Positions 19,419 to 27,044 are shown, counted from the stretch's first letter. The stretch is DNA of 64,000 nt from the human T2T-CHM13v2.0 reference genome, Homo sapiens (GCF_009914755.1 NC_060929.1), one strand, 5' to 3'. The notes: generated from the letters alone by a model not told the origin. Program-made: numbers and translations.

Positions 19419-19720
19419 GTAATGTGTGTCTGTCTACTGCTAACTATCATAAGCCCTAAAGGTTTATCTAGTCTCTTACCCTGGTGATATGGGCCATATA
19501 ACAAAGAACTTTCTAGAAATACCATTCCATATAGCCTAGAACTGCGCTAGTTCTAAGAAACTCACTTAGTAGTTTTTCATTCTCTTACTGGAAAAAAATG
19601 TTTTGGATATTTTCTATATGTGAGTTATAGGAGATACAGTGAACAGGACAAACATGGACCCTATCATTGTAGAACTTTGTTCTACAGGATTCTTTTTTTT
19701 TATACCAATGTATAATAGTT

Positions 19721-19955
19721 TGTATTAATTTGGTAGCACTGCTGTACAATGAACTAGGTGGCTTTGACAACAGCAATTTATTCTCTTGTAGTAGAACCCA
19801 GAAGTCCAAAATCAAAGTGTCAGCAGAGTTGGTTCATTCTGGAGGCTGTGAGACGTAATCTATTCTATGCCTCTCTCATACCTTCTGGTGGCTGCTGGGA
19901 ATCCTTGGTGTTTCTTGGCTTGTAGATGCATCATTCAAATACCTGCTTCTGTCTT
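19721..19955 (-). mobile_element. Half of an MLT1 (MLT1C-like) LTR inside the transduced segment
   Basis: ccagaagtccaaaatcaaagtgtcagcagagttgg...ggaatccttggtgtttcttggcttgtagatgcatca; remainder absent on the other side of the L1. Confidence 0.8.
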
Positions 19956-20366
19956 TTATTTTTTTCTTATTTTTTTTGTTTTTTCTTTTCTTTTATTTTA
20001 TTGTTATTATACTTTAAGTTTTAGGGTACATGTGCACAATGTGCAGGTTAGTTACATATGTATACATGTGTCATGCTGGTGTGCTGCACCCATTAACTCA
20101 TCATTTAGCATTAGGCATATCTCCTAAAGCTATCCATCCCCCCTCCCCCAACCCGACAACAGTCCCTAGACTGTGATGTTCCTCTTCCTGTGTCTATGTG
20201 TTCTCATTGTTCAATTCCCACCTATGAGTGAGAACATGCAGTGTTTGGTTTTTTGTTCTTGTGATAGTTTACTGAGAATGATGATTTCCAGTTTCATCCA
20301 TGTCCCTACAAAGGACATGAACACATCATTTTTTATGGCTGTATAGTATTCCATGGTGTATATGTG

Positions 20367-22001: not shown

Positions 22002-25000
22002 GATTGCCCTGGCCAGAACTTACAACACTATGTTGAATAGGAGTGGTGAGAGAGGGCATCCCTGTCTTGTGCCAGTTTTCAAAGGGAATGCCTCCAGTTT
22101 TTGCCCATTTAGTATGATATTGGCTGTGGGTTTGTCATAGATAGCTCTTATTATTTTGAGATACGTCCCATCAATACCTAATTTATTGAGAGTTTTTAGC
22201 ATGAAGGGTTGTTGAATTTTGTCAAAGGCCTTTTCTGCATCTATTGAGATAATCATGTGGTTTTTGTCTTTGGTTCTGTTTATATGCTGGATTACATTTA
22301 TTGATTTGCATATATGGAACCAGTCTCACATCCCAGGGATGAAGCCCATTTGATCATGGTGGATAAGCTTTTTGATGTGCTGCTGGGTTCGGTTTGCCAG
22401 TATTTTATTGAGGATTTTTGCATCAATGTTCATCAAGGATATTGGTCTAAAATTGTCTTTTTTGGTTGTGTCTCTGCCCGGCTTTGGTATCAGGATGATG
22501 CTGGCCTCATAAAATGAGTTAGGGAGGATTCCCTCTTTTTCTATTGATTGGAATAGTTTCAGAAGGAATGGTACCAGTTCCTCCTTGTACCTCTGGTAGA
22601 ATTCTGCTGTGAATCCATCTGGTCCTGGACTCTTTTTGGTTGGTAAGCTATTGATTACTGCCACAATATTAGAGCCTCTTATTGGTCTATTCAGAGAGCC
22701 AACTTCTTCCTGGTTTAGTCTTGGGCGGGTGTATGTGTTGAAGAATTTATCCATTTCTTCTAGATTTTCTAGTTTATTTGCATAGAGGTGTTTGTAGTAT
22801 TCTCTGATGATAGTTTGTATTTCTGTGGGATCGGTGGTGATTGCCCCTTTATCATTTTTTATTGCATCTATTTGATTGTTCTCTCTTCTCTTCTTTATTA
22901 GTCTTGCTAGCAGTCTATCAATTTTGTTGATCCTTTCAAAAAACAGCTCCTGGATTCATTAATTTTTTGAAGGGTTTTTTTGTGTCTCTATTTCCTTCAG
23001 TTCTGCTCTGATGTTAGTTATTTCTTGCCTTCTGCTCTTGCTTTTCTAGTTCTTTTAATTGTGATGTTAGGGTGTCAATTTTGGATCTTTCTTGCTTTCT
23101 CTTGTGGGCATTTAGTGCTATAAATTTCCCTCTACACACTGCTTTGAATGTGTCCCAGAGATTCTGGCATGTTGTGTCTTTGTTCTCATTGGTTTCAAAG
23201 AACATCTTTATCTCTGCCTTCATTTCATTATGTACCCAGCAGTCATTCAGGAGCAGGTTGTTCAGTTTCCATGTAGTTGAGCGGTTTTGAGTGAGTTTCT
23301 TAATCCTGAGTTCTAGTTTGATTGCACTGTGGTCTGAGAGATAGTTTGTTATAATTTCTGTTCTTTTACATTTGCTGAGGAGAGCTTTACTTCCAACTAT
23401 GTGGTCAATTTTGGAATAGGTGTGGTGTGGTGGTGAAAGGAATGTATAGTCTGTTGATTTGGGGTGGAGAGTTCTATAATGTCTATTAGGTCCACTTGGT
23501 GCAGAGCTGAGTTCAATTCCTGGATATCCTTGTTAACTTTCTGTCTCATCGATCTGTGTAATGTTGACAGTGGGGTGTTAAAGTCTCCCATTATTATTGT
23601 GTGGGAGTCTAAGTCTCTTTGTAGGTCACTAAGGACTTGCTTTATGAGTCTAGGTGCTCCTGTATTGGGTGCATATATATTTAGGATAGTTAGCTCTTCT
23701 TGTTGAATTGATCCCTTTACCATTATGTAATGGCCTTCTTTGTCTCTTTTGATCTTTGTTGGTTTAAGTCTGTTTTATCAGAGACTAGGATTGCAACCCC
23801 TGCCTTTTTTTGTTTTCCATTTGCTTGGTAGATCTTCCTCCATCCTTTTATTTTGAGCCTATATGTGTCTCTGCACGTGAGGTGGGTTTCCTGAATACAG
23901 CACACTGATGGATCTTTACTCTTTATCCAATTTGCCAGTCTGTGTCTTTTAATTGGAGAATTTAGTCCATTTACATTTAAAGTTAATATTGTTATGTGTG
24001 AATTTGATCCTGTCATTATGATGTTAGCTGGTGATTTTGCTCGTCAGTTGATGCAGTTTCTTCCTAGCCTCGATGGTCTTTACAATTTGGCATGATTTTG
24101 CAGTGGCTGATACCGGTTGTTCCTTTCCATGTTTAGTGCTTCCTTCAGGAGCTCTTTTAGGGCAGGCCCGGTGGTGACAAAGTCTCTCAGCGTTTGCTCG
24201 TCTGTAAAGTATTTTATTTCTCGTTCACTTATGAAGCTTAGTTTGGCTGGATATGAAATTCTGGGTTGAAAATTCTTTTCTTTAAGAATGTTGAATATTG
24301 GCCCCCACTCTCTTCTGGCTTGTAGAGTTTCTGCCGAGAGATCCGCTGTTAGTCTGATGGGCTTCCCTTTGTGGGTAACCCGACCTTTCTCTCTAGCTGC
24401 CCTTAACATTTTTTCCTTCATTTCAACTTTGGTGAATCTGACAATTATGTGTCTTGGAGTTGCTCTTCTCAAGGAGTATCTTTGTGGCATTCTCTATATT
24501 TCCTGAATCTGAATGTTGGCCTGACTTGCTAGATTGGGGAAGTTCTCCTGGATAATATCCTGCAGAGTGTTTTCCAACTTGGTTCCATTCTCCCCGTCGC
24601 TTTCAGGAACACCAATCAGATGTAGATTTGGTCTTTTCACATAGTCCCATATTTCTTCGAGGCTTTGTTCGTTTCTTTTTATTCTTTTTTCTCTAAACTT
24701 CCCTTCTTGCTTCATTTCATTCATTTCATCTTCCATCACTGATACCCTTTCTTCCAGTTGATCGCATCAGCTCCTGAGGCTTCTGCATTCTTCACGTAGT
24801 TCTTGAGCCTTGGCTTTCAGCTCCATCAGCTCCTTTAAGCACTTCTCTGTATTGGTTATTCTAGTTATACATTCGTCTAAATTTTTTTCAAAGTTTTCAA
24901 CTTCTTTGCCTTTGGTTTGAATTTCCCCCTGTAGCTCAGAGTCATTTGATCGTCTGAAGCCTTCCTCTCTCAACTCGTCAAGGTCATTCTCCGTCCAGCT

Positions 25001-27044
25001 TTGTTCCATTGCTGGTGAGGAGCTGCGTTCCTTTGGAGGAGGAGAGGTGCTCTGCTTTTTAGAGTTTCCAGCTTCTGTGCTCTGTTTTTTCCCCATCTTT
25101 GTGGTTTTATCTGCTTTTGGTCTTTGATGATGGTGATGTACAGATGGGTTTTTGGTGTGGATGTCCTTTCTGTTTGTTAGTTTTCCTTCTAACAGACAGG
25201 ACCCTCAGCTGCAGGTCTGTTGGAGTTTGCTAGAGGTCCACTCCAGACCCTGTTTGCCTGGGTACCAGAAGCGGTGGCTGCAGAACAGCAGATTTTCGTG
25301 AACCGTGAATGCTGCTGTCTGATCGTTCCTCTGGAAGTTTTGTCTCAGAGGAGTACCCGGCTGTGTGAGGTGTCAGTCTGCCCCTACTGGGGGGTGCCTC
25401 CCAGTTAGGCTGCTTGGGGGTCACAGGTCAGGGACCCACTTGAGGAGGCAGTCTGCCTGTTCTCAGATCTCCAGCTGCGTGCTGCGAGAACCACTGCTCT
25501 CTTCAAAGCTGTCAGACAGGGACATTTAAGTCTGCAGAGGTTACTGCTGTCTTTTTGTTTGTCTGTGCCCTGCCCCCAGAGGTGGAGCCTACAGAGACAG
25601 GCAGGTCTCCTTGAGCTGTGGTGGGCTCCACCCAGTTAGAGCTTCCTGGCTGCTTTGTTTACCTAAGCAAGCCTGGGCAATGGCGGGCGCCCCTCCCACA
25701 GCCTTGCTGCCACCTTGCAGTTTGATCTCAGAGTGCTGTGCTAGCAATCAGCGAGACTCCGTGGGCGTAGGACCCTCCGAGCCATGTGCGGGATATAATC
25801 TCCTGGTGCGCTGTTTTTTAAGCCCATAGGAAAAGCACAGTATTGGGGTGGGAGTGACCCGATTTTCCAGGTGCCCTCTGTCACCCCTTTCTTTGACTAG
25901 GAAAGGGAACTCCCTGACCCCTTGCACTTCCCGAGTGAGGCAATGCCTTGCCCTGCTTTGGCTCACGCATGGTGTGCTGCACCCACTGTCCTGTGCCCAC
26001 TGTCTGGCACTCCCTAGTGAGATGAACCCAGTACCTCAGATGGAAATGCAGAAATCTCCCGCCTTCTGTGTCGCTCACCCTGGGAGCTGTAGACCGGAGC
26101 TGTTCTTATTCGGCCACCTTGGCTCCACCCTACAGGATTCTTTTTAGTCCAGGCTCACCTAGTTCTTGTCAGCTTTCCTCACTTGAGCACCTCTCAGCAG
26201 AATGCACCTCCAGTCCCACCTTCTATTCTGAAAGGGAAAAGGAGATAGTAAGAGTCAAATAGGAAAAAGCTTGGATGCACTTTGCTGCTCCCACCAAAAG
26301 CTGTGCTATTTGCTCTTTAAGTTCTTAGGGCTCTCTGGGTGTGCAATGGATGAGAAGTAGGCAGATAATGTAATTAACTAAATTAAATCTACTTAAAAGG
26401 TTTTTAAACACTTACCCAGCATATTATGTTGTGAATGAGAGAATGATAGAATTATATTTTCTGGAGCAGTGTACACTGATCATCTTTTATTTTCAGCAAA
26501 AAAACCTCTTGTGTTACTAACACAATAACATATACAAATAAAGTCAAGAAGTACCAGTGTTGTCATTTCTCTATTATAGAATCCACTCACATTTTAGTTA
26601 TTCCAAAACTCTTTAACTGCCACAAAAGAGGGCAATCCTAGAGATGTCACATTTTAAATTCTAGGCACAAAACCCTTCAGATGACATAGCAGTTATTCCT
26701 TCTTTTCCTAATGAGGCTGACAGCCACCAGAGGCCCTCCAACTCCAGAACTCAACAATAGAACTGGAATGCTAATGAGCTCTCAACAGTGCATCAGCCCA
26801 GAGGTAAATCTGGTGGTGATCGATCATTCTGAAAGCACATATTTGCCTGTCATGTCCACAACTGGTATGTTAAGCACCTGCAGTCTGCTCCATGTCTATA
26901 TAGGCTTCTTTTCTATGGAGTACTGTCTTAATGTCAACAACCATTTTAGGTTAATCTGTTCACTTGTTATTCCTTACCTGAAATTATTTTCTCAATATTC
27001 TTCTGCCTCAAAACAAATTCTCAATGTTCACTGTCTCTTGTGAG

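What the first reader, a model, noticed from the sequence alone, without database searches (positions are those of the whole stretch)
19683..26145. Full-length L1 with a ~255-bp 3' transduction that moved half of an ancient MLT1 LTR
Seen: the sequence next to the L1 5' end (tacaggattcttttt, 26131-26145) is not found at the L1 poly-A but ~260 bp further out (19683-19697), followed by a residual second T-run (19698-19701). Between the two tails lie ~20 bp of unique DNA and a half MLT1 LTR whose other half is absent. MLT1 is far older than L1PA3, so it cannot have inserted afterwards. Inference: a source L1 sitting inside an MLT1 elsewhere read through its own poly-A signal and terminated downstream (AATACA ~20 nt before the second tail, AATAAA ~75 nt before it). 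The transduction tags the parent element.
Basis: partly seen in the sequence, partly recalled or inferred. Interest (0 to 1): 0.75.

Follow-up and report, generated by a model that had tools for sequence, protein, structure and literature searches.

The report
Parentless L1 transduction from chromosome 9
A dead full-length jumping gene (L1) on human chromosome 5 carries 255 bases copied from one spot on chromosome 9 where no L1 sits today, so it likely records a parent element since lost from our lineage; this is a well-known kind of event.

Summary
Observation confirmed and donor found. A 16-bp target-site duplication (19682-19697 and 26130-26145) brackets a full-length L1, its 47-nt A-rich tail, 255 extra bases and a short second A-run. 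The extra bases match one other place in the genome, chr9:128,258,545-128,258,800 (95.4%); other copies of the same LTR family match at 74-84%. At chr9 the LTR is whole, and the copied part (53% of it plus 19 flanking bases) starts at an endonuclease-like site and ends 19 nt after AATACA, before a T-rich stretch. No young L1 lies within the 30 kb examined there, so the tag points to an empty site. Best reading: a 3' transduction from a source L1 that sat in that LTR and never fixed in the human line. The element keeps the ~129-nt 5'UTR segment (L1PA4 or long L1PA3 class) and its divergence fits that of the tract. No sibling was found. Such 'parentless' transductions are described in dogs and primates. 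Ape orthologues could not be checked, so later excision of the parent or an RNA-level chimera stay open. Ordinary; low interest.

The parts
19682..19697 (-). 3' copy of the 16-bp target-site duplication
   Evidence: exact match to 26130-26145; rebuilt empty site reads TTTTT/AG on the + strand
19698..19701 (-). remnant second A-tail (4 A outside the duplication, 3 of them also templated at chr9)
   Evidence: 9-A run in all; alignment to chr9 reaches 19699
19702..19720 (-). 19 nt of chr9 flank beyond the LTR end, part of the transduced tract
   Evidence: matches chr9 with 1 difference; a 26-nt pattern across the LTR end occurs only at chr5 and chr9
19721..19956 (-). 3' half (53%) of an old LTR-type repeat (MLT1 by recall) copied from chr9:128,258,545-128,258,781
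   Evidence: 95.4% to chr9 over 259 columns; 74-82% to 38 other copies; chr9 repeat spans about 128,258,338-128,258,781
19721..19726 (-). AATACA, likely poly(A) signal used for the read-through RNA
   Evidence: 19 nt before the end; TGTA at -43; T-rich stretch follows at chr9; use is inferred
19777..19782 (-). AATAAA inside the LTR, likely not the signal used
   Evidence: 75 nt before the end
19957..20003 (-). first, interrupted A-rich tail of the L1 (47 nt), likely the source element's genomic tail
   Evidence: sequence; absent at chr9
20004..26129 (-). full-length, inactive L1 (L1PA4 or long L1PA3 class)
   Evidence: 94.7% and 93.4% to the two other long L1s of the window; ORF1 has stops at codons 110 and 201; ORF2 is in pieces with frameshifts and a 20-nt deletion near 23036
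25227..25354 (-). 128-nt 5'UTR segment that younger L1s lack
   Evidence: absent from the L1 at 36.1-42.1 kb, present in the L1 at 56.1-62.3 kb; position fits the L1PA3 numbering in PMC5860796
26130..26145 (-). 5' copy of the 16-bp target-site duplication, abutting the L1 start
   Evidence: sister L1s start at the same place

Best explanation
The chr5 insertion is a full-length L1 plus 255 bases copied from chr9:128,258,545-128,258,800, likely made by read-through (3' transduction) from a parent L1 that once sat inside the LTR there and likely never fixed in the human line. Shown: one 16-bp duplication brackets L1, tail and tract; the donor is chr9; the donor LTR is whole and has no young L1 near it. 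Inferred: an L1 inserted at the CTTT/AT site in the chr9 LTR; transcription passed its tail, ran through the LTR's 3' half and was cleaved 19 nt after AATACA; the RNA was reverse-transcribed in one event into a TTTTT/AG nick on chr5, in an ape ancestor; the daughter survives, the parent-bearing chr9 allele was lost and the empty allele remains.
For: Single exact 16-bp duplication, none at the L1 tail. One donor at 95%, next best copies 74-82%, among 40 scored of 1298 candidates; both ends of the tract occur only at chr5 and chr9. Homology stops at the L1 tail and at the second A-run, and no flank is shared. Tract is in L1 sense. Donor junction reads CTTT/AT; a loose endonuclease-like rule fits 2.2% of positions in the 30 kb, and 12 of 13 other copies have G at that base; CTTT/AA and TCTT/AT sites are listed for real insertions in PMC4859970. 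After the 3' end chr9 is 60% T over 30 nt, reached by 1.0% of local 30-mers. Tract divergence 4.3% (11 of 255; 95% interval 2.2-7.6%) fits 4.4-5.8% between this 5'UTR and 29 sister L1s. Parentless sources were the majority in dog data: 17 of 18 (PMC7980453) and 24 of 27 (PMC13141329).
Against: The parent itself is not seen: no young L1 in chr9:128,239,000-128,268,999, only pieces 63-74% identical, 8 kb or more upstream. No sibling with the same tag was found. The second tail has one A that neither the duplication nor the donor explains. A junction against an A-tail slides to the start of an A-run, so the endonuclease-like site is worth roughly 1 in 10, not 1 in 50 (my estimate). The published parentless cases I read are polymorphic insertions, not ancient ones. 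No other primate genome was available.
Confidence: 0.76

Rival explanations
1. Same transduction, but the parent L1 was fixed or common at chr9 and was later removed almost precisely by recombination between its two target-site copies.
For: The only indel between the copies (one extra base at chr9) lies 14-15 nt from the junction, where the far edge of a source duplication would fall; 13 of 13 other copies also lack that base.
Against: Clean recombination between duplications leaves no extra base; the extra base lies in a TT and fits slippage; the coincidence was noticed after the fact. Precise removals are called extremely rare in PMC5402677.
Confidence: 0.1
2. No L1 ever sat at chr9. Reverse transcription began on a polyadenylated chr9 RNA ending beyond the LTR and switched onto the tail of an L1 RNA through the shared AAA, or the two RNAs were ligated.
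For: Empty donor site; 3-A microhomology at the junction; template switching and RNA ligation are the known routes to L1 chimeras (10.1101/2025.02.02.635956).
Against: The chimeras described there put the foreign RNA 5' of the L1 3' end, the reverse of this order. The L1 is complete to its 5' end with a 47-nt tail inside the insertion, the standard transduction anatomy (PMC4859970). The junction is an endonuclease-like site particular to the chr9 copy. I had no evidence for a chr9 transcript ending there.
Confidence: 0.08
3. Variant for the 3' end only: the read-through RNA was longer and the T-rich target primed inside it at the templated AAA (internal priming), so AATACA played no part.
For: Of 9 A, 5 belong to the duplication and 3 are templated at chr9. 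Internal priming is a described route (PMC4859970).
Against: Priming on 3 A would leave a run of about 5, not 9, unless it grew later; signal at -19, TGTA at -43 and the T-rich stretch downstream fit true cleavage.
Confidence: 0.15
4. Two separate events or a DNA-level copy: the half LTR reached chr5 first and the L1 inserted beside it, or a segmental duplication joined them.
For: None beyond the absence of the parent.
Against: The L1 has no duplication of its own (longest 7 nt); chr5 and chr9 share nothing outside the 259 aligned columns; tract and L1 have matching divergence.
Confidence: 0.02

Closest known systems
L1-mediated 3' transduction (Moran 1999, Pickeral 2000, Szak 2003 as cited in PMC4859970 and PMC9311842)
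   Same: Two A-rich tracts, sense-strand downstream sequence, one duplication round the whole, endonuclease site; 255 nt is within the 8-997 nt range (mean 206) reported for human polymorphic events.
   Different: Parent absent; tract is mostly repeat, so pipelines that need 25 unmasked bases (PMC13141329) would likely drop it (19 unique nt); ancient rather than polymorphic.
'Parentless' 3' transductions (dog: PMC7980453, PMC13141329; primates without donor L1 at source: PMC4862182)
   Same: Transduced sequence maps to one locus with no adjacent L1.
   Different: Those are recent insertions whose parents may still segregate; here 4% divergence means the parent allele is likely long gone from humans.
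U6/L1-type chimeric insertions (10.1101/2025.02.02.635956)
   Same: L1 and non-L1 sequence inside one duplication.
   Different: There the foreign RNA is 5' of the L1 3' end; here it is 3' of a complete L1 and its tail.
L1PA4 / long L1PA3 elements with the 129-bp ZNF93-binding segment (PMC5860796, 10.1101/429613)
   Same: 1033-nt 5'UTR that keeps a 128-nt segment missing from a neighbouring L1.
   Different: Exact subfamily not assigned by a library; ZNF93 binding not tested.

Membership tests
L1 3' transduction | One target-site duplication encloses L1 and extra sequence | tested here: met
   16 bp exact, 19682-19697 / 26130-26145; best alternative 7 nt
L1 3' transduction | Extra sequence maps to another locus at high identity, in L1 sense, and is bounded there | tested here: met
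   chr9:128,258,545-128,258,803, 95.4%; only such hit
L1 3' transduction | Two A-rich tracts | tested here: inconclusive
   First tail 47 nt; second run 9 A, of which 8 are explained by duplication plus donor
L1 3' transduction | Poly(A) signal 10-40 nt before the end of the tract | tested here: met
   Variant AATACA at -19, T-rich stretch downstream; window from PMC9311842; the list of variant hexamers is recalled
L1 3' transduction | Endonuclease site at the new locus | tested here: met
   TTTTT/AG
L1 3' transduction | Source L1 directly upstream of the donor in some genome | tested here: inconclusive
   Absent in this assembly; other human haplotypes and apes not available. Absence defines the parentless subclass.
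L1 3' transduction | Empty pre-insertion site in outgroup primates | not testable with these tools
   The genome search holds no relatives for this genome
L1PA4 / long L1PA3 | 129-bp 5'UTR segment retained | tested here: met
   128-nt gap against the L1 at 36.1-42.1 kb
L1PA3 in the strict sense | 3'UTR diagnostic positions | not testable with these tools
   No repeat library; label recalled
MLT1 LTR | Match to the library model | not testable with these tools
   Label recalled; shown only to be an old dispersed repeat of about 444 nt with TG...CA ends and an internal AATAAA
U6/L1-type chimera | Foreign RNA lies 5' of the L1 3' end | tested here: not met
   Foreign tract lies 3' of the L1 tail

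The most novel reading that the evidence does not exclude
No L1 ever stood at the chr9 site: the insertion is a reverse-order chimera in which L1 reverse transcriptase started on a cellular RNA ending just past the LTR and jumped onto a full-length L1 RNA, which would mean some 'parentless transductions' never had a parent.
Probability: 0.08. Interest if true: 0.55.

Novelty: new member of a known kind. Interest (0 to 1): 0.22.

Why it matters
It is a clean fossil of an L1 that was active in an ape ancestor and is gone from this assembly; the tag fixes its former address to within three bases, so ape genomes can show whether it was lost by lineage sorting or excised. It also shows that a 'half LTR' can be a young copy, which misleads dating by repeat family. 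No functional effect is shown, and the class is well known.

Tried and rejected
The repeat finder on 18500-27500 did not list the duplication among the 20 largest of at least 60 families. L1 inserted into a resident LTR: rejected, the 5' half is in neither flank (scores 21 and 23, shuffle level). Segmental duplication: rejected, no shared flank. Splicing from an upstream chr9 L1: rejected, only 63-74% identical old pieces lie in the 19.5 kb upstream, the L1 tail is retained, and the sequence before the junction is purine-rich. Siblings: 6 other L1s share the start of the tail pattern within 1 mismatch (7 matches with self); none continues into the tract. A search with the L1 3' end plus junction scored 40 of 5243 candidates; two chr14 hits ran 16-22 nt past the junction; I did not read those loci, and neither appears in a 25-nt junction pattern search with up to 3 mismatches (3 matches: self and two 3-mismatch hits, 1 in the control, which also misses chr9 because of the indel). 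Polarity of the 11 substitutions against 13 other copies leaned to changes on the chr9 side, too few to test. Szak 2003, Pickeral 2000, the journal version of Hoyt 2022 and Jacobs 2014 were not held. Earlier findings were not available.

Full report
Observation. Composition predicts 4e-6 such matches in 3 kb, and the longest rival duplication at the L1's own tail is 7 nt. In L1 sense the insertion reads: duplication, L1 (26129-20004), a 47-nt interrupted A-rich tail (20003-19957), 236 nt of a dispersed repeat (19956-19721), 19 unique nt (19720-19702), 4 A, duplication. The rebuilt empty site is TTTTT/AG. The missing half of the repeat is in neither flank.

Donor. A search of the window's own assembly with the tract scored 40 of 1298 candidates: itself, one locus at 95% over all 254 bases on contig C9 (chr9), and 38 copies at 74-82%. 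The alignment covers chr9:128,258,545-128,258,803 with 11 substitutions and one indel. Patterns from either end of the tract each match only chr5 and chr9. At chr9 the repeat is whole, about 128,258,338-128,258,781 by its TG and CA ends and by overlap with 13 of the 38 other copies, the ones fetched; the copied part is 53% of it. A 901-base chr9 query matches chr5 only over the tract. In 30 kb round the donor the only L1-like pieces are 63-74% identical and lie 8 kb or more upstream. The parent element is therefore not in this assembly.

Junctions. The chr9 break reads CAT|AAAG, i.e. CTTT/AT on the lower strand. A loose endonuclease rule fits 2.2% of positions in the 30 kb, and 12 of 13 other copies have G where chr9 has the first A. 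Because a junction with an A-tail slides to the start of an A-run, I count this as modest support. At the far end AATACA ends 19 nt, TGTA 43 nt and AATAAA 75 nt before the last templated base, and the next 30 nt at chr9 are 60% T, a level reached by 1.0% of local 30-mers. That is the layout of a variant poly(A) site (established knowledge; hexamer list recalled). Against it, the second A-run is 9 long, with 5 in the duplication and 3 templated, so internal priming is not excluded.

The L1. It is full length: sister elements start at the same place. ORF1 has two internal stops and ORF2 is in pieces, so it is dead. Its 1033-nt 5'UTR keeps a 128-nt segment that the neighbouring L1 at 36.1-42.1 kb lacks. 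PMC5860796 (passages) and 10.1101/429613 (passages) describe a 129-bp segment lost within L1PA3 in the great-ape ancestor; 10.1101/2025.02.02.635956 (section 19) places L1PA4 after the ape-monkey split. The element is thus of the L1PA4 or long L1PA3 class; the narrower label is recalled. Its 5'UTR differs by 4.4-5.8% from 29 of the 39 sister hits, the ones fetched; the tract differs from chr9 by 4.3% (interval 2.2-7.6%). The two figures agree with one event, roughly 13-20 million years ago by recalled calibration.

Mechanism. Most likely an L1 inserted into the chr9 LTR, was read through its tail to the AATACA site, and the long RNA was copied into chr5 in one target-primed event; the daughter survives and the parent allele was lost (0.76). 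The single bracket, the donor, its orientation and the empty site are shown; the parent, the signal and the loss are inferred. Rivals: later near-precise excision of the parent (0.10), prompted by the single indel 14-15 nt from the junction that 13 of 13 other copies lack, though PMC5402677 (passage) calls precise removal extremely rare; an RNA-level chimera with no parent (0.08), whose described forms have the opposite order (10.1101/2025.02.02.635956, abstract and section 3); a two-step or DNA-level origin (0.02). Internal priming (0.15) concerns only the 3' end and is compatible with the first three. No sibling was found; repeat searches score only the best candidates, so a short sibling could be missed.

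Comparison with what is known. The anatomy is that of a 3' transduction as drawn in PMC4859970 (passages). Frequencies of about 10-15% are quoted in PMC2768975 and PMC10883270 (passages), and lengths of 8-997 nt in PMC9311842 (passages). Donor loci without an L1 are named parentless in PMC7980453 (17 of 18; passages) and PMC13141329 (3 of 27 had an adjacent L1; passages); PMC4862182 found an upstream L1 for 3 of 6 human calls and almost none in other primates (passages). The CHM13 repeat preprint 10.1101/2021.07.12.451456 lists 183 top-confidence L1 3' transductions and lower tiers in a table I could not open (passages). I saw no mention of this locus in the passages read from searches, but Szak 2003, Pickeral 2000 and that table were unavailable, so it may already be catalogued.

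Verdict. New member of a known kind; interest 0.22.

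Noticed in passing
window 42031-42088 and 25407-26227 (- strand): LINC02108's annotated first exon lies in the 5'UTR of the neighbouring long L1 (36.1-42.1 kb) and ends at GAG|GTACCG about 95 nt into it, close to the L1 splice donor G98U99 of PMC5860796; its last exon runs across the 5' duplication into the 5'UTR of the transducing L1. The RNA thus likely starts at one L1 promoter and ends inside a second L1. Two papers mention the name once each (listing only).
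   Followed up: partly
window 36.1-42.1 kb (-), 20.0-26.1 kb (-), 56.1-62.3 kb (+): Three long L1s in 64 kb that straddle the loss of the 129-bp 5'UTR segment: one lacks it, two keep it.
   Followed up: partly
L002:1514-1515 (chr9:128,258,559-560): The only indel between donor and copy sits 14-15 nt from the junction, where the edge of the lost parent's duplication would be.
   Followed up: partly
window 19998-20009 (- strand): The L1's usual end reads AATAAC rather than AATAAA, with AATAAA following inside the tail; three other L1s (L054-L056) share this start of the tail.
   Followed up: partly
window 4-2362 and 2561-5215: Older L1 pieces at 75% and 81% identity to the element.
   Followed up: no
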